From positions 1-64,000 of the IMG/VR virus record IMGVR_UViG_3300045988_171725: 64,000 nt of DNA. One strand, given 5' to 3'. Below the pieces are notes generated by a model. It had not been told where the DNA came from. It made no database searches and worked only from the letters and a program-made list of their open reading frames with translations. The DNA comes from a virus. The translations under genes and the position numbers were made by a program. This document shows, in pieces, positions 3,431 through 29,566 of the stretch. Within the stretch, counting starts at the first letter, position 1. The number at the start of each line of letters is the position of its first letter.

Positions 3431-3793
3431 CGAGTATATACTCCGTACTTTATTCTTACTTTATACGAGTATATACTCTTAGTAATCATAGTTCCGTACT
3501 TTTATTATACTCTTCTAGTATATATACTCTTATTACAAGGATTTATTTAATTATATAAATAGACTACTAAATAAATTTAGTAGTCTTAATTACTCACTAC
3601 GTTCGTAATTATATTTAATATTTAATATTTTATTTTTATTACTTAGCTTATTACAAGTAAAGAGTATATATTACTAGTAAACTTAATATGAGTATATATA
3701 AATAATATATAAATATAATAATATAAGAGAAATATATAAAGAGAGTATAAATAAATAGTAGTTAGTAATACTCTTTATATACTCCGTACTAGT
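3431..3793. repeat. AT-rich iteron region (palindromic GAGTATATACTC family); putative replication origin
   Basis: GAGTATATACTC at 3432-3443 and 3468-3479. Variants at 3517-3529, 3662-3674, 3690-3700 and about 3741. TATATACTCCGTACT at 3436-3450 and 3776-3790. Extremely AT-rich core 3540-3760 with hairpin AGACTACTAAA-N-TTTAGTAGTCT. No credible ORF. Confidence 0.5.
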
Positions 3794-13768: not shown

Positions 13769-13838
13769 AAGGTAGCTCCTTTGCCGACGACCGCTTCGAA
13801 CGACCTGATTGTGTCGGCTTGGCTTTGCTTTCTGCAAA

Positions 13839-13910
13839 AACCCATGAGCGCCGCGCATTGCTGCGCATCGGACTTGCACCGATTGCTCTTACGAGCAGGC
13901 CTTGCGGGTT
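13839..13910 (-). other. compact multi-hairpin RNA element in an intergenic spacer
   Basis: Read in minus sense, an AACCC/GGGTT closing helix encloses three hairpins: GCTC-GTAA-GAGC, ATCGG-N7-CCGAT and GCGCA-GCAA-TGCGC. Two have GNRA loops. A U run follows. Confidence 0.4.
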
Positions 13911-14112
13911 ACGCCGTGTATTGATAAATAGTTGGGAAACCGTTATCGCGCTCAATTTCACAAGCAACTGCTTCGCAACGCATGTGAGCTTCCTCCCAAA
14001 GTTTATCTTCGCTTTCGGCACTTACTTCAAAAGTAAGCGTTTTGACTTTTCTCCACTCATCGTTCATTAAGTCGTGAGCTTCAAAATTTGCTGTAATTTT
14101 CTTTGTTAACAT
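13909..14112 (-). CDS. hypothetical small protein (67 aa)
   Basis: Weak AAGGAA RBS. Confidence 0.5.
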   Translation of the reverse strand: MLTKKITANFEAHDLMNDEWRKVKTLTFEVSAESEDKLWEEAHMRCEAVACEIERDNGFPTIYQYTA

Positions 14113-25769: not shown

Positions 25770-27435
25770 ATGCCAGTTTTGCAAAACCTGTATCAGGTTT
25801 ATAAATTACCATCGAGTTTTATCGTGGAAAACAATTTAAAAATCGATAATTATACTCGAAAACGAGCGATTCAAGACGGAAATCTTGTAAGTGTCGGCGA
25901 CAATATGGTATTTTATAAAATTCGGGATTATTATGGGGACACAAGAAGTCACAAAGAGATTTTCGACGCGGTGCAAAACCTTCGAACGACTCTTCGCATT
26001 TGTAAAAGAGAAGGTAAAATACTCGAAGGGCACATCGTAAATCAACAAATTCAGGATATTCTTTTTGTGAAAGACATAATTGTTGTAGTTTGCGAGAAGA
26101 AATCTGAATATCTAAAAATTGGTACAAAAGGATTTGAAATAAACGGAGTCAGATATACGAGACTTTGCGCGGGAGCTGGAAATTTGCGCCGTAACAATGC
26201 GATTTATGTAAACGAGAAGCTTTACCCTTATCTTTACGAAGTGTTTATGTGCGGGCTCGCAGACAAACTTAAAGAAGCGGTTCTTCCAAAACTCAGCGCG
26301 TATTTTGCGCTTTCCTTTTCGTCGGTTTTGTGGGTTAGAACGCCGCGAGTTTGCGTGATAAAAGACTTCGAAACGACGCTCCCCAATCAGAACGTCGATT
26401 TCATTTGTCGAAAGGAAGAATTGGACGACGAAGGAAAACCTCGAACGAAACATTACATCGAAAAACGCGTGATGGATTTAACGCTCAATAGTGCGGACGG
26501 GCAAGGTTTGGTAGATCCCGAATTTAGTAAGTTGTGGGCGGAAGATATGCAGCTCGATTACGTGCCTTCATCGTTTGTTGTCAGAAGTTCGTTCGTGAAA
26601 GGGAACCTCGTTCCGTTTGATTTTAAGGCTTACGCAGCGGAACATGGAATAGACAAAATTAAGGATAGATGGGGTGTTGAATACCCGTTGAATGAAATTG
26701 ATGTTTTATTAAGCGAGTCGCAGTTCAAAGAATATAAGGAATATTCGAGCTGGCAGGAGTATTTGTATTATTTTAACAAATACAAGCTCCGTTGGGGTGT
26801 CGCCCGTTACAATAAGAAACACGATGATGAATATGTTCTCGCGAATTACCAATACATTCAAGCGCTTACCCTTTCGAAGGAAGATATTCACGGGTTAATT
26901 CAACCGACAATCGATTGGATTAAAAACATTTGTTCGGGCGATGATTTATACAGCCTTCTTTTTATGTTCGGAGGCAAAAGCGAAGACGTGACTTATGAGA
27001 GAATGTACTCTTCGGCGCAATCAACGTTTATGAAAGCGATCGTAAAAAACAACGAGATGCTGAAAGACGCGCACGTTCAGCGGAAGATTTACAAAAACAT
27101 CGTTGAGTGTATAAACCGTGCGAAGATTGGCAAGATTTGGGTGAGAGGAAATTACCAGTTTATGATTTCTGACCCGATCGCGCAGTGCCAGTCGGCGTTG
27201 GGATTACCAGTTAAAGGGGAAATTCCAGCCGAACACGTTTGGTCGAATTTTTGGAATGAACGACGAATTGAGGGTTATGTTGACTGCTGTCGTTCGCCAA
27301 TGATCGATACAAGTGAGCATAACCCGTCGAAGTTATATAAAAGCGAAACCACAGAAAAGTGGTATCAATATATAAAGAGTGGTTTGGTGTACAGCATATA
27401 CGATGTCGCGACATTTAAACACTCGGATAGTGACT
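25770..27435 (+). CDS. RdRP/YonO-like single-subunit RNA polymerase, exon 1
   Basis: AAGGAGA RBS. SFVVRSSFVKGNLV (R...KG.L), CCRSPMIDTSEH (R.P). Ends ...FKHSDSD + T, the first base of the Phe codon of DFDGD. Confidence 0.65.
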
Positions 27436-28424
27436 TAACGATATAGGTCCTGCGATTGGTGACAATCGTATGCAAACTCGGTGAACCCATAAATGTGGGG
27501 TGTGGAGATTAATCTCTGCTAACGACAAAAATCTTCTTTCGATTTTCGCAATATAAATACGAGAAGGTGATATTGTTGGATTTTGATAAGATAGATTTTT
27601 CTGTAAAGAAATATGATAAAACTCGTAAATATTATGTTTATGAGTGGTATAATGTTGAAACTGGCGCTGTCTTTTATGTTGGTAAAGGTAGCGGTGGTAG
27701 ATACAAAAGAGTGACAAATAGTTCTCGAAATATATATTTTTTAAGATATTACAACAAATATAAATGTGATAGCAGGATTTTATTTTGTGGCTTGACGGAA
27801 GAAGAAGCATATCTTAAAGAAAAAGAAATTATAATAAAATATAATAAACTCGGCTATCAATTAACGAATTGTGACGAAGGAGGGCACCCTGGTGGAGCTA
27901 ATTCTGGAGAAAAAAATGGTATGTATGGAAAGACCCATACTCCAGAAGTTCGTAAAATCCTAAGAGATGTTAATCTTGGAAAGATTGGCAAAACAAATTC
28001 AAACGCAAAGTATTGCGATGTTTATGACGATAAGTTTGAATTTATAAAACATTTCGATTGTATAACCGATGCAATGAATTATATTGGTGAAATAGAGAAC
28101 AGAACATATAAGAGTATGGTAACGTATTTTTGGAGATATCAAAACGGAACCATAGATATTATACTAAATAAGTATCATATAAAAATTTATAGAAAATCGA
28201 GAGAAGACAATGACGTGCCAAGCGTTTCTAAAAATGGAAATGAAGGTACAACGACTATCGAAAGCGTATAAATAGAGAAATACTATTTAAAGTAAGCAAG
28301 TAGAGTACCAATGAGTGAAATTCTCAACGGGAAGTGCCGAGGTTCTTATATTTGGTGAAAGAATATAAGAATATAAAATAGTCTATACCCCTAATAAATA
28401 TCGGGCGACCGAGGGTAGGAATAG
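27436..28424 (+). mobile_element. group I intron carrying a GIY-YIG homing endonuclease ORF
   Basis: P1 helix: exon GACU (27432-27435) pairs with GGUC (27446-27449) and ends in a U-G wobble. The last intron base is G (28424). Contains a GNRA hairpin 27453-27468 and a 10-bp hairpin 28343-28371. Removing it restores the reading frame. Confidence 0.65.
27567..28271 (+). CDS. GIY-YIG homing endonuclease (I-TevI-like, NUMOD3 repeats)
   Basis: YYVYEWYNVETGAVFYVGKGSGGRYKR (GIY...YVG). GEKNGMYGKTHTPEVRKILRD and GKIGKTNSNAKY (NUMOD3-like). The start may be GTG 27567 or TTG 27576. Confidence 0.8.
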   Translation: MILLDFDKIDFSVKKYDKTRKYYVYEWYNVETGAVFYVGKGSGGRYKRVTNSSRNIYFLRYYNKYKCDSRILFCGLTEEEAYLKEKEIIIKYNKLGYQLTNCDEGGHPGGANSGEKNGMYGKTHTPEVRKILRDVNLGKIGKTNSNAKYCDVYDDKFEFIKHFDCITDAMNYIGEIENRTYKSMVTYFWRYQNGTIDIILNKYHIKIYRKSREDNDVPSVSKNGNEGTTTIESV

Positions 28425-29566
28425 TCGATGGAGACATTGCCCTTTCAACAGATAACGAATATTTCTTGAAAGGTGCTCACAGAAATGAAAACATAATAAC
28501 TTATGAAAAAGGCATTGCCCGTAAGGAAGAAATTTCCCAGAAAAACTTCGTAAAAAAAGACCTTATGGGCTTTGGTACGGCGGTCGGCAGTCTTTCAAAT
28601 ACCGCGACGATTATTTACGCGATGATCGGGATTTTCAATAAACCAGAACAGGAGCCGCAACGCCAAGAGTTATACACGCGAATAAAGCTTCTTCGCGAAT
28701 ACGTCGGGCAGGAAATTGACAGAGCGAAACTCGGAATAAAGCAGCAAAAACTTCCAGTCGAGTGGAGAAAATATATTCATGTAAATAAAGATGATACCGA
28801 TGAAATAAAGGCGGAAAAATATAAACACAATTCCATGGTAATTAAAAAGAAACCTTATTTCTTTCGTTATCTTTATCCTGAATGTAATAAAGAGTTTAAA
28901 CAATTTGAAAATGGCTATAACATTATATCAAAAGATATGTTTGGGCTGAAATTAAAAAAGCTTTTTGCGAAACCAAACAAAACGGGAAAAGAAATGACGC
29001 TCGTTAGACAATATCAAAAGAATTGCCCTCTGATTGTTTCAAATTGTACAATGAATATCTTATGTAAAGAATTTGAGAATGTTGATTTTGACATAAAATT
29101 TGGTAAATCTAATGTGAATATGCTTAATCTTTATCAAAATGAAGGTTTTAAAGTCAATTCATCAATTCTTACGAAGTTTCGCAACGCTTATCGTAAATAT
29201 AACAATAAAAAGACAATAATTGCGCTCGATGATGTTTTTGAAAACAAAGACGAGGACGATATAAAGAATATTTACAATCTCGTTCTCGATACGGCAAAGC
29301 AGGAAATCCAGGAAGAAATTTTCGGGTTCGGGTTAAAGCCCAAGGAAATGCTTTTTTACGTCGGTCAGCTTGCGAAGGAATATACAAATTTCAATTGGAG
29401 TTTTGTTTGGGACATAATGGATTCAATCGTTCCCGAAGGCGTTGAACAAGGGAAAAGTTACGCACCAGTTCGTTCGGAAGACGGAGAAGAATATCTCGGC
29501 GAGAAGTTCATGCTCAAAGAAGTTATAAAGAGAGCCGAAGGGGAGGTTTATACGAATGTTGAATGA
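28425..29566 (+). CDS. RdRP/YonO-like RNA polymerase, exon 2
   Basis: Begins TC GAT GGA GAC, which completes DFDGD. The frame is open for 69 nt upstream of the first possible start codon, and no RBS is present there. Confidence 0.65.

What the first reader, a model, noticed from the sequence alone, without database searches (positions are those of the whole stretch)
27436..28424. Group I intron inserted inside the Phe codon of the catalytic DFDGD loop
Seen directly in the sequence:
- Exon 1 ends GAC T at 27435. GACU pairs with GGUC at 27446-27449, ending in the U-G wobble typical of a group I P1 helix.
- The proposed intron ends in G (28424).
- Joining T + TC GAT GGA GAC gives D-F-D-G-D in frame.
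- The alternative join that would give DLDGD lacks the terminal G.
- The downstream ORF is open for 69 nt before any start codon and has no RBS.
- The insert has a GNRA-capped hairpin (27453-27468), a 10-bp hairpin (28343-28371) and a GIY-YIG/NUMOD3 endonuclease ORF.

Targeting the most conserved catalytic codon is classic homing behaviour. To my knowledge it has not been described for this polymerase family.
Basis: partly seen in the sequence, partly recalled or inferred. Interest (0 to 1): 0.7.

Follow-up and report, generated by a model that had tools for sequence, protein, structure and literature searches.

The report
Self-splicing intron splitting a phage RNA polymerase
A mobile group I intron carrying its own homing endonuclease gene sits inside the Phe codon of the catalytic Asp loop of a phage YonO-like RNA polymerase gene; this is an ordinary kind of element in a host gene and site not reported in the papers I could search.

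Summary
Window 27436-28424 (989 nt) interrupts a 935-aa YonO/RdRP-like two-barrel RNA polymerase gene after the first base of Phe in D-S-D-F-D-G-D.

- **Junction.** Uninterrupted homologues (94% identical) read GAC T|TC GAT GGA GAC across exactly this point.
- **ORF-less allele.** A 317-nt version of the same insert sits at the same site in other phage contigs.
- **RNA structure.** The insert has a group I layout: P1 with a U·G at the 5' splice site, terminal G, P3/P7 pseudoknot, P4-P6, P7.1/P7.2 (IA2-like), P8 and P9. On 13 family members, 93% of cells pair and the covariation score is 0.53 against 0.18 when shuffled.
- **Rfam.** Intron_gpI finds nothing in the window, where a 646-nt loop holds the ORF. 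ORF-less relatives give full-length matches of 22-42 bits, below the gathering score of 50.
- **Endonuclease.** The ORF is a NUMOD3 / probable GIY-YIG endonuclease in the P5 loop.
- **Wider pattern.** Related introns use three points within 6 nt of this loop and carry GIY-YIG, LAGLIDADG, HNH or no ORF. One of them explains the "split YonO" annotation of Clostridium phage c-st.

Splicing itself is inferred, not shown. Verdict: a new member of a known kind, of moderate interest.

The parts
25770..27435 (+). Exon 1 of the RNA polymerase gene: codons 1-555 plus the first base (T) of Phe556. As called, the ORF runs on to a stop at 27444-27446 (tail D-L-T-I*).
   Evidence: ORF list. Spliced translation. 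94-98% identical homologues.
27436..28424 (+). Group I intron, IA2-like, 989 nt.
   Evidence: The insert is absent from L001 and L134. An ORF-less 317-nt allele is in L003. Core structure and covariation.
27432..27449 (+). P1: GACUUA (27432-27437) pairs with UAGGUC (27444-27449). The 5' splice site is after U27435, which pairs with G27446.
   Evidence: The guide sequence changes with the exon sequence in most related introns.
27439..27441 (+). Candidate P10 strand: CGA pairs with exon 2 UCG (28425-28427).
   Evidence: Read. The L003 allele has CAA here and UUG in exon 2, a compensatory change that goes with the TTC to TTT Phe codon.
27452..27469 (+). P2 hairpin: GCGAUUG / CAAUCGU with a GUGA loop.
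   Evidence: L195 has CCGGUCG-GCGA-CGACCGG in the same place.
27477..27483 (+). P3 5' strand, CUCGGUG. It pairs with 28335-28341.
   Evidence: More than 15 different complementary P3 sequences occur in the family.
27486..27519 (+). Two hairpins between P3 and J3/4, P3.1/P3.2-like: CCCAU/GUGGG (27486-27490 / 27495-27499) and GUGGAGA/UCUCUGC (27502-27508 / 27513-27519).
   Evidence: Both are kept with compensatory changes across the family (alignment). P3.1 is listed as an optional group I pairing in PMC3873408.
27522..27526 (+). P4 5' strand, ACGAC. It pairs with GACGU 28212-28216, with one A·A mismatch. UAA at 27520-27522 is J3/4.
   Evidence: the P4 helix is 98.7% paired in the family.
27532..27546 (+). 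P5 5' strand. It forms 15 contiguous bp with 28193-28207. Loop L5 (27547-28192) holds most of the ORF.
   Evidence: and direct reading. The ORF-less allele has a short P5 (UCUC/GAGA) at the same place.
27567..28271 (+). Homing endonuclease ORF, 234 aa from GTG 27567. The real start is probably TTG 27573 or 27576, after GAAGGUGA. It has NUMOD3 and a probable GIY-YIG domain. Its last ~80 nt read through P5', P4', P6, J6/7, P7 and the start of P7.1.
   Evidence: (phrog_314, E = 1.9e-13).
28193..28216 (+). P5 3' strand (28193-28207), J5/4 CAAU, and P4 3' strand (28212-28216).
28217..28247 (+). P6 (GCC 28217-28219 / GGU 28245-28247) with P6a (GUUUC 28224-28228 / GAAAU 28237-28241).
28251..28257 (+). 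P7 5' strand, A(C)GACUA, with C28252 bulged. It pairs with UAGUCU 28379-28384.
   Evidence: Five complementary P7 variants occur in the family.
28264..28330 (+). P7.1 (28264-28297), the conserved GUAGAGUA junction (28300-28307), and P7.2 (28308-28330, loop UGAAAUU). These are the insertions between P7 and P3' that mark subgroup IA.
   Evidence: About 80% identity to the phage 812 recA intron core.
28335..28341 (+). P3 3' strand, UGCCGAG.
28342..28372 (+). P8 hairpin, followed by J8/7 AUAAAA (28373-28378).
28379..28384 (+). P7 3' strand, UAGUCU.
28388..28424 (+). P9 module: CCCU / AGGG around CGG-GCGA-CCG. It includes the 22-mer AAAUAUCGGGNNACCGAGGGUA (28396-28417), then the tail to the terminal G at 28424.
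   Evidence: The 22-mer has at least 119 hits in IMG/VR and at least 120 in bacterial genomes and MAGs.
28425..29566 (+). Exon 2 of the RNA polymerase gene. It begins TC GAT GGA GAC, which completes F-D-G-D.

Best explanation
Window 27436-28424 is a mobile group I intron of the IA2-like kind. It is inserted after the first base of the Phe codon in the D-S-D-F-D-G-D metal-binding loop of a phage single-chain two-barrel (YonO/RdRP-like) RNA polymerase gene.

**Inferred mechanism**
1. The gene is transcribed as one pre-mRNA.
2. The intron folds: P1 pairs exon GACU with the guide GGUC, and the core is P3-P8 plus P4-P6 with P7 as the guanosine site.
3. An external guanosine attacks after U27435.
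4. The freed exon 1 then attacks after the terminal G28424, helped by a short P10.
5. This yields an mRNA for the intact 935-aa polymerase.

The ORF in the P5 loop encodes a NUMOD3 / probable GIY-YIG homing endonuclease. It presumably cuts intron-less alleles in co-infecting phages, so that repair copies the intron in (homing).

**Shown here:** the exact junction, the conserved and covarying RNA structure, the related alleles (empty site, ORF-less, degenerate ORF, intact ORF), and the identity of the polymerase.

**Inferred:** catalysis of splicing, endonuclease activity, and the endonuclease's target.
For: **Junction**
- The spliced product is DSDFDGDIALS.
- Uninterrupted 935-aa homologues, e.g. 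P0001, P0002 and P0004, read the same.
- L001 DNA reads gac t|tc gat gga gac without a break.
- D553, D555, D557, G558 and D559 are invariant in 62 homologues.

**Alleles**
- The same intron without an ORF is at the same site (L003-L006, 317 nt).
- A near-identical contig carries the same 989-nt insert (L182).
- A version with an N-terminally truncated ORF occurs in L197 and L199.

**Structure**
- An independent RNAalifold consensus on 13 ORF-less family members recovers P3, P4, P6/P6a, P7.2, P8 and P9. 30 of 46 pairs carry compensatory changes.
- With P7 added: 93.2% of cells paired, covariation score 0.531 against 0.175 shuffled (0 of 500 shuffles reach it), and at most 0.103 when partners are slid.
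- P3, P4 and P7 located by sequence context alone in 33 distinct members: 91.6% paired, 0.415 against 0.144.

**Splice-site rules**
- In 16 of 16 loop introns, exon 1 ends in U and the intron ends in G.
- In most, the guide changes with the exon: GACU/GGUC, CGGAU/GUCCG, UUCGAU/GUCGAA, CUAUGAU/GUCAUAG, AAGGAU/GUCCUU. Pairing is weak in L093 and L023.

**Rfam Intron_gpI, full-length matches on ORF-less relatives**
- L003: 22.7 bits, E = 0.0017.
- L061: 42.5 bits, E = 1.6e-7. L136 (same loop): 31.1 bits, E = 4.4e-4. L107: 22.5 bits.

**Known relatives**
- The core is about 80% identical over 71 nt to the intron of Staphylococcus phage 812 recA. That record has a joined CDS and an 'intron-encoded putative endonuclease I-812II'.

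**No independent expression signal for the second half**
- Exon 2 has no start codon for 41 nt and no ribosome-binding site.
Against: - No RNA data: splicing is not shown.
- Rfam Intron_gpI gives no match in the window even at E <= 10. No family member reaches the gathering score of 50; the best is 42.5.
- P1 in the window has only 4 exonic base pairs, which is not above chance on its own.
- P4 carries an A·A mismatch.
- Two extra hairpins lie between P3 and J3/4, which is not the textbook IA2 layout.
- The GIY-YIG assignment of the ORF is weak.
Confidence: 0.9

Rival explanations
1. The gene is truly split. A free-standing homing endonuclease gene landed in the polymerase gene, and the two halves are translated separately and assemble. 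This is how Clostridium phage c-st was annotated ('YonO N-ter only' / 'C-ter only').
For: - Gene callers produce a 558-aa N-half and a C-half everywhere.
- PHROGs holds separate families for the halves: phrog_25339 (558 positions) and phrog_35857.
- The c-st annotation treats the gene this way.
- Phage genes split by free-standing endonucleases are known (my own knowledge).
Against: - The break falls inside the Asp triad loop and inside a codon.
- The C-half has no start codon for 41 nt and no ribosome-binding site.
- Inserts of 297-317 nt with no ORF sit at the same sites and keep a covarying RNA fold.
- Every insert obeys the rule 'U before, G at the end', and in most the guide pairs with the exon.
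Confidence: 0.04
2. It is a dead intron: a group I relic that no longer splices, so the polymerase gene in this phage is a pseudogene.
For: - Degenerating copies exist in relatives, e.g. the truncated ORF in L197.
- P1 is short and P4 has a mismatch.
- The window gives no Rfam match.
Against: - All core helices are intact and match the ORF-less allele and the family consensus.
- The exons are under clear protein constraint: 94-99% identity to relatives, with no stops or frameshifts.
- The endonuclease ORF is full length.
- The same A·A in P4 is present in the independent ORF-less allele L003.
- YonO's Asp triad is essential for activity (PMC5467207), so loss of the gene would be costly if, as seems likely, this is the phage's own transcription enzyme.
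Confidence: 0.04
3. It is another kind of intervening element: an intein, a group II intron, or a translational bypass or frameshift.
For: Inteins and group II introns also occur in phage polymerase genes (PMC7886860, PMC12350094).
Against: - A stop follows three codons after the junction, and there is no Hint domain, so it is not an intein.
- There is no reverse transcriptase ORF, and ORF-less copies are only about 300 nt, so it is not group II.
- A 989-nt gap is far beyond any known bypass.
- The fold is group I.
Confidence: 0.01

Closest known systems
Group I introns of Herelleviridae (Twort-like/K-like Staphylococcus, Listeria, Enterococcus and SPO1-like Bacillus phages), e.g. the Staphylococcus phage 812 recA intron encoding I-812II
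   Same: - They share the J6/7-P7-P7.1-GAGUAGAGUA-P7.2-GAAGUGC core, about 80% identical over 71 nt.
- The 3' end has the same design: P7' followed by a P9 hairpin with a GNRA loop, ending in G.
- Both carry an endonuclease ORF in a peripheral loop and interrupt an essential phage gene.
   Different: - The host gene is an RNA polymerase, not recA, DNA polymerase or nrdE.
- The ORF sits in L5, not L8.
- The 5' half differs: two hairpins lie between P3 and J3/4.
- The P9 sequence module differs.
T4 td intron with I-TevI (GIY-YIG endonuclease in an IA2 intron)
   Same: From my own knowledge of td: an IA2-type core with P7.1/P7.2, a GNRA-capped P2, and a GIY-YIG endonuclease with a modular DNA-binding tail encoded in a loop, in a phage gene for nucleotide or nucleic-acid metabolism.
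   Different: - The td ORF is in P6a.
- The target here is a polymerase catalytic loop.
- Sequence similarity to I-TevI was not detected.
- GIY-YIG membership is only weakly supported here.
PhiPA3 gp210 intron in a jumbo-phage RNA polymerase beta-subunit gene (Birkholz et al., Science 2024, PMC11620839)
   Same: A putative group I intron with a homing endonuclease interrupts a phage RNA polymerase gene right next to conserved, functionally important Asp residues. There the endonuclease cuts the homologous site of a competing phage.
   Different: - That polymerase is multisubunit (a beta-like subunit) and the endonuclease is HNH.
- Here it is the single-chain YonO-like enzyme and the site is the beta'-type DxDGD metal loop.
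- No competition data exist for this one.
SPO1 / SP82 / Bastille DNA polymerase introns (I-HmuI, I-HmuII, I-BasI)
   Same: Related introns with different endonuclease ORFs occupy the same or neighbouring sites of one conserved polymerase motif in related phages (cited in PMC11620839, plus my own knowledge).
   Different: Here three insertion points lie within 6 nt. Three endonuclease families (GIY-YIG, LAGLIDADG, HNH) and ORF-less forms all occur in one RNA polymerase loop.
Disrupted RNAP DxDxD motif in Zeta-group crAss-like phages (Yutin et al. 2021, PMC7886860)
   Same: A two-barrel phage RNA polymerase gene broken inside the DxDxD motif in gut metagenomes. Those genomes also have a high intron density.
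   Different: - That report gives no RNA structure for those breaks and suggests unknown expression mechanisms.
- It concerns a different polymerase lineage.
- I did not examine those genomes.

Membership tests
Group I intron | P1 helix between the exon 1 end and an internal guide sequence, with a U·G pair at the 5' splice site | tested here: met
   In the window, GACU (27432-27435) pairs with GGUC (27446-27449), with U27435·G27446 last. In 16 of 16 related loop introns a U precedes the intron. In most the guide changes with the exon sequence; pairing is weak in L093 and L023. The window's P1 alone is not above chance.
Group I intron | Terminal guanosine as the last intron base | tested here: met
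   G28424. 16 of 16 related introns end in G. In 11 of them the boundary is fixed unambiguously by comparison with uninterrupted genes.
Group I intron | Conserved core: P3/P7 pseudoknot, P4-P5-P6 domain and P8, supported by covariation | tested here: met
   RNAalifold consensus and pair counts: 93.2% paired, score 0.531 against 0.175, 0 of 500 shuffles. Context-anchored P3/P4/P7 in 33 members. Coordinates in the window.
Group I intron | Guanosine-binding P7 with a bulged nucleotide and conserved J6/7 and J8/7 segments | tested here: inconclusive
   The sequence fits: A(C)GACUA/UAGUCU with a bulged C and an invariant G-C second pair. 'GGUUCAACGACUA' and 'AUAAAAUAGUCU' in the L003 allele align to the Rfam consensus. 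Binding itself cannot be tested here.
Group I intron | Match to Rfam RF00028 at or above the gathering score (50 bits) | tested here: not met
   Window: no match at gathering or at E <= 10. ORF-less relatives give full-length matches of 22.7, 22.5, 31.1 and 42.5 bits, with E from 0.16 down to 1.6e-7. The window's 646-nt L5 loop and the extra hairpins are likely reasons.
Group I intron | Self-splicing started by exogenous guanosine | not testable with these tools
   Needs an in-vitro transcription and splicing assay, or RNA-seq.
Subgroup IA2 | P7.1 and P7.2 inserted between P7 and the 3' strand of P3 | tested here: met
   28264-28297 and 28308-28330. P7.2 covaries at 7 of 8 pairs. Similar to Herelleviridae introns. 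Subgroup-specific covariance models were not available, and the hairpins between P3 and J3/4 are not standard for IA2.
GIY-YIG homing endonuclease (with NUMOD3) | N-terminal GIY-(10-11 aa)-YIG motif, then Arg, Glu and Asn; a recognised domain hit | tested here: inconclusive
   - YVY-x10-FYVG, R45, E80/E85 and N101 are invariant in 17 homologues.
- Pfam: NUMOD3 20.3 against 20.4; LEM-3_GIY-YIG at E = 0.15; no PF01541.
- A few distant homologues carry PF01541 or PF22945.
- Profile against PDB 9u75, a GIY-YIG protein: E = 0.0024.
YonO-like / cellular-RdRP-like two-barrel RNA polymerase | Two double-psi beta-barrel fold with a DxDGD metal-binding loop | tested here: met
   - PF05183 is above cut-off in 56-61% identical homologues. 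In P0052 the match runs to residue 575, past the loop.
- AlphaFold model of P0001: pLDDT 89.4. Foldseek hits: RDR2 1e-17, QDE-1 3e-14, phage P32 gp64, crAss phi14:2 RNAP.
- tblastn hit to the c-st ORFs annotated as YonO homologue.
- The Asp triad is essential in YonO (PMC5467207).

The most novel reading that the evidence does not exclude
The 15 nt that encode DxDGD in YonO-like phage RNA polymerases are a contested homing hot spot.
- Three mutually exclusive insertion points are in use: D1|X2, inside X2, and D3|G4.
- The introns using them are related and carry GIY-YIG, LAGLIDADG, HNH or no endonuclease.
- Phages whose polymerases are 97-99% identical carry different introns.

The reading that goes beyond plain selfish homing is this: the endonucleases act as weapons between co-infecting gut phages, disabling a rival's transcription enzyme at its catalytic centre, as shown for PhiPA3 gp210. 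In addition, the introns belong to a widespread subfamily with two extra hairpins between P3 and J3/4 that standard Rfam screening misses, so many 'split' polymerase genes in viromes would be intact.
Probability: 0.3. Interest if true: 0.6.

Novelty: new member of a known kind. Interest (0 to 1): 0.4.

Why it matters
**Annotation**
- YonO-like polymerases are being called as two unrelated ORFs. The PHROG families 25339 and 35857 look like such halves. Clostridium phage c-st genes CST179 and CST178 are annotated as 'N-ter only' and hypothetical.
- The cause is an intron family that the Rfam gathering threshold misses.

**Biology**
- This adds the beta'-type Asp-triad loop of a single-chain RNA polymerase to the catalytic sites targeted by homing introns.
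- It gives a compact natural series in one 6-nt stretch: empty site, ORF-less, degenerate ORF, and three endonuclease families. That series suits the study of the homing cycle and of intron-against-intron exclusion.

**Testability**
- c-st is a cultured phage, so splicing at this loop can be tested directly.

It does not change what is known about how group I introns work.

Tried and rejected
- **Rfam on the window.** Gathering and E <= 10 searches found no Intron_gpI match. Rfam on the c-st region also found nothing.
- **Megablast of 25770-29566 against GenBank phages.** No match.
- **PDB sequence searches.** The polymerase N-half and the endonuclease as single sequences gave nothing useful.
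- **A false lead.** The Intron_gpI hit above threshold in L098 (56.6 bits) looked like support at first. It is a second, different intron about 300 nt downstream, so I do not count it.
- **Rfam's placement of the P3 5' strand.** Rfam put it on the 3' strand of the second extra hairpin. I rejected this: class B introns lack that complementarity, and CUCGGUG/UGCCGAG covaries in more than 15 variants.
- **First context-anchoring script.** It mis-placed P3 because of a greedy-regex problem. It was redone with a stricter context, and the mis-anchored rows were kept in the count.
- **Exons starting (V/I)D(I/T)D.** I suspected these were crAss-type RNAP DxDxD loops. They are DNA polymerase III alpha genes, so I dropped that idea.
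- **Intein, group II intron and translational bypass.** Considered and rejected (see the rival explanations).
- **Not done.** I did not build my own covariance model; a model of about 300 positions would have exceeded the calibration limit.
Full report
**What is in the window.**
- On the + strand, an ORF of 558 aa (25770-27446) is followed by a 234-aa ORF (27567-28271).
- A long open frame then resumes at 28382, but has no start codon until TTG 28466. It ends at 29566.
- The first and third pieces are the two halves of one protein. Joining 27435 to 28425 gives a 935-aa product reading ...KHSDSDFDGDIALSTDNEYF....

**The junction.**
- A search of 5.8 billion proteins with the joined product found uninterrupted 935-aa proteins at 94% and 90% identity over 100% of the length. 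The same DSDFDGDIALS string occurs in P0001, P0002 and P0004; P0003 and P0005 read DSDWDGDICLS.
- The DNA of one of them (L001) reads 'tct gac t|tc gat gga gac att gct' without a break.
- So the insert is 27436-28424, or one base to the right: a T flanks both ends, and alignment alone cannot decide.
- In 62 full-length homologues, D553, D555, D557, G558 and D559 are invariant.

**The same insert without an ORF.**
- Proteins ending ...DSDLTT or ...DSDLTI (558 aa) come from contigs in which the gap between the halves is only 317 nt (L003 6667-6983, and L004-L006).
- This short allele is collinear with the window's insert, except for two regions. The P5 hairpin is short, and P6a is different.
- In the window, P5 is a 15-bp stem (27532-27546 / 28193-28207). 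Its 646-nt loop holds most of the ORF.
- A 146.5-kb IMG/VR contig (L182) carries the same 989-nt insert, with 98-99% identical exons.

**RNA structure in window coordinates.**

| Element | Coordinates and sequence |
|---|---|
| P1 | 27432-27437 / 27444-27449, splice site after U27435, which pairs with G27446 |
| P2 | 27452-27469, GUGA loop |
| P3 | 27477-27483 / 28335-28341 |
| Extra hairpin 1 | 27486-27499 |
| Extra hairpin 2 | 27502-27519 |
| J3/4 | UAA (27520-27522) |
| P4 | 27522-27526 / 28212-28216, one A·A mismatch |
| P5 | 27532-27546 / 28193-28207 |
| P6/P6a | 28217-28247 |
| P7 | A(C)GACUA 28251-28257 / UAGUCU 28379-28384 |
| P7.1 | 28264-28297 |
| P7.2 | 28308-28330 |
| P8 | 28342-28372 |
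| P9 | 28388-28415 |
| Terminal G | 28424 |

- P7.1 and P7.2 between P7 and the 3' strand of P3 mark subgroup IA (my own knowledge).
- An optional P3.1 pairing is listed for group I introns in PMC3873408.
- A short P10 is plausible. Exon 2 UCG pairs with CGA at 27439-27441. In L003 the exon is UUG and the intron has CAA at the same positions, a compensatory pair that tracks the synonymous TTC/TTT Phe codon.

**Is the structure real?**
- The 22-mer at the 3' end (AAATATCGGGNNACCGAGGGTA) has at least 119 exact hits in IMG/VR. This gave a large family to compare.
- On 13 ORF-less members aligned by MAFFT, RNAalifold on its own recovers P3, the second extra hairpin, P4, P6/P6a, P7.2, P8 and P9. 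30 of 46 pairs carry double compensatory changes.
- Adding the P7 pseudoknot gives 93.2% of cells paired and a covariation score of 0.531, against 0.175 for shuffles (0 of 500 reach it). Sliding the partners gives at most 0.103.
- P3 and P7 are 100% paired there. P3 has four to five pair types at four positions. P7 has three and two types at its two variable positions in this set.
- A second test took P3, P4 and P7 by sequence context only from 33 distinct members, with mis-anchored rows kept. It gave 91.6% paired and 0.415 against 0.144. That alignment is built from my anchors and so leans towards the structure.

**Splice-site rules across relatives.**
- I looked at 16 introns inserted in this same loop in diverged polymerase genes. 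In all 16, exon 1 ends in U and the intron ends in G.
- In most, the guide sequence changes with the exon: GACU/GGUC, GCGAUU/GGUCGC, CGGAU/GUCCG, UUCGAU/GUCGAA, CUAUGAU/GUCAUAG and AAGGAU/GUCCUU. The mean is 5.9 exonic bp, against 3.55 for control U positions.
- In L093 and L023 the script found only 2 and 3 exonic bp.
- The window's own 4 bp would not be significant alone.

**Covariance-model evidence.**
- Rfam Intron_gpI finds nothing in the window.
- On ORF-less relatives it gives matches over the whole model: L003 22.7 bits (E = 0.0017), L107 22.5, L136 31.1 (E = 4.4e-4; this one is in the same loop of a 93% identical polymerase), and L061 42.5 (E = 1.6e-7).
- All are below the curated 50 bits, so membership by that criterion is not met.
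- The aligned segments are the conserved group I core: J4/5, J5/4, 'GCCAAG' of P6, 'GGUUCAACGACUA', and 'A(U)AUAGUCU'.

**Relation to known introns.**
- blastn of the ORF-less allele against GenBank phages hits 244 records, mostly Staphylococcus, Enterococcus, Listeria and Bacillus phages, at the P6-P7-P7.1 core.
- In Staphylococcus phage 812 the hit lies inside the annotated recA intron. That record has a joined CDS and an 'intron-encoded putative endonuclease I-812II'.
- That intron shares the P7 - P7.1 - GAGUAGAGUA - P7.2 - GAAGUGC order and a similar 3' end.

**The ORF.**
- It matches phrog_314 'homing endonuclease' at E = 1.9e-13, and NUMOD3 at 20.3 bits against a cut-off of 20.4.
- Its N-terminus has YVY-x10-FYVG, then R, E and N. 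All are invariant in 17 homologues.
- A profile of these hits a solved GIY-YIG protein (9u75) at E = 0.0024. No Pfam GIY-YIG model passes. I call it a probable GIY-YIG enzyme.
- Homologues share the C-terminal DN(D/T)VPS...TT(I/T)ES. In the window this is encoded by J5/4-P4'-P6 and J6/7-P7. The ORF therefore reads through the ribozyme core, and its relatives sit in related introns.

**The host gene.**
- Homologues at 56-61% identity pass Pfam RdRP (PF05183). In P0052 the match runs to residue 575, past the loop.
- An AlphaFold model of P0001 (pLDDT 89.4) matches plant RDR2 (1e-17), Neurospora QDE-1 (3e-14), phage P32 gp64 RNAP and the crAss-like phi14:2 RNAP.
- tblastn finds the Clostridium phage c-st ORFs annotated as YonO homologue.
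- In YonO, changing the Asp triad to Asn abolishes RNA synthesis (PMC5467207).
- The neighbouring genes (dNMP kinase, ClpP, PhoH, ThyX, YonJ_N) are the same in all related contigs, which run to 158 kb.

**The wider picture.**
- Three insertion points are used within 6 nt.
  - Between D1 and the aromatic residue: L077, L032, L039/L065, L098.
  - After the first base of the aromatic codon: the window, L003-6, L048, L074, L093, L195, L197.
  - Between D3 and G: L007/L008/L129 with a LAGLIDADG ORF, L130 with an HNH ORF, L128/L136 without an ORF, plus L053, L095/L107, L023, L110 and phage c-st.
- No locus has two of these sites occupied. Occupying one site breaks the exon sequence that the other intron's P1 needs.
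- Phages with 97-99% identical polymerases carry either the window's intron (L182) or the LAGLIDADG one (L135, L201). Relatives at 93-94% have an empty site or an ORF-less intron.
- Of 80 polymerase loci pulled from IMG/VR by protein similarity, 60 are uninterrupted and 15 have an insert, always in this loop. Two more begin at residue 558. One of the two search patterns was the intact motif, so the fraction is a lower bound.
- In phage c-st the 317 nt between CST179 and CST178 (L131 2211-2527) follow ...ATG GAT| and precede |GGA GAT. They have GGAU/GUCC with a U·G, a terminal G, the ACGACUA/UAGUCU pair, and a 3' end nearly identical to that of the phage 812 intron.
- The same intron family also sits in the D-x-D motif of DNA polymerase III alpha genes (confirmed in L080), and apparently next to an RNR-like NxCxE active-site motif, which I only read by eye. 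The 22-mer also occurs in many Bacillota genomes and MAGs.

**Mechanism, rivals and novelty.**
- The best reading is an active, mobile group I intron that restores the polymerase mRNA by self-splicing and spreads by endonuclease-driven homing. The junction and the fold are shown. Catalysis and homing are inferred.
- A truly split gene, a dead intron, and other element types are each unlikely, for the reasons given under the rival explanations.
- I found no paper linking YonO-like polymerases with group I introns.
- The nearest reports are the PhiPA3 intron next to conserved Asp residues of a multisubunit RNAP beta subunit (PMC11620839), and unexplained breaks in the DxDxD motif of Zeta crAss-like RNAPs (PMC7886860).
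- Homing introns in catalytic motifs of phage genes are a well-known theme. This is therefore a new member of a known kind, with a useful side result for annotation.

Noticed in passing
window 13835-13912 (-): A twister-sister ribozyme (Rfam RF02681) scores 62 bits against a gathering score of 34, over the full model.
   Followed up: no
L131 (Clostridium phage c-st AP008983) 2211-2527 and 3643-3649: The YonO homologue of this cultured phage is annotated as three ORFs (CST179, CST178, CST177). The first break is a 317-nt group-I-like intron at DMD|GD. The second is a 7-nt overlap of ORFs, possibly a frameshift or sequencing error, which I did not examine.
   Followed up: partly
L098 778-1082 (-): A polymerase homologue carries a second, canonical group I intron (Rfam 56.6 bits, above gathering) about 300 nt downstream of its catalytic-loop intron.
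   Followed up: partly
L020, L032, L050, L059, L077, L102, L117, L126 (query residues ~620-666); L052, L063, L085, L096, L121 (~residue 620): More distant polymerase homologues carry introns with the same 3' module at further sites about 65-100 residues downstream of the catalytic loop. Some genes have two introns.
   Followed up: no
L080 1652-1673 and downstream; also L046, L087, L055, L072, L034: The same intron 3' module sits directly before exons starting (V/I)D(I/T)D(I/F). In L080 the downstream exon is confirmed as DNA polymerase III alpha (PF07733, PF17657). The intron is therefore in that enzyme's catalytic D-x-D motif.
   Followed up: partly
L074 and L093 (site inside the Phe codon): Two introns at exactly the window's insertion point have a different, compact core with no P7.1/P7.2 and no extra hairpins. 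They carry the same 22-nt P9 module, which suggests modular exchange between introns.
   Followed up: no
L197 6899-7480, L199: An intron at the window's site carries an N-terminally truncated homologue of the window's endonuclease (193 aa, no GIY-YIG motif). This looks like a degenerating stage of the homing cycle.
   Followed up: partly
window 27427-27435 versus L001 4657-4665 and L007 6657-6665: Alleles carrying the window-type intron use AGT or AGC for the Ser before the first Asp of the triad (gat AGT gac t|). The intron-less allele L001 and the class B allele L007 use TCT. This could be co-conversion or a difference in the endonuclease target.
   Followed up: no
window 28193-28271: The endonuclease ORF ends by reading through P5', P4', P6, J6/7, P7 and the start of P7.1. 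The C-terminal peptide DN(D/T)VPS...TT(I/T)ES is conserved in homologues because the RNA core is conserved.
   Followed up: yes
L053 3692-3906 (-); L048 3229-3375 (+); L074 13007-13068 (+): HEARO RNAs (RF02033) score 111 bits, and 79 bits for a copy cut at the locus end. A RAGATH-18 RNA lies near the polymerase genes of related phage contigs.
   Followed up: no
PHROGs phrog_25339 (558 positions) and phrog_35857: These 'unknown function' families match only the N-half and the C-half of the polymerase. They look like artefacts of intron-split gene calls.
   Followed up: partly
L214-L333 (genome contigs): The 22-nt P9 module occurs in at least 120 bacterial genome or MAG contigs, mostly Bacillota. 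They include cultured Bacillus, Lysinibacillus, Oceanobacillus, Sarcina and Eubacterium strains, presumably in prophages.
   Followed up: no
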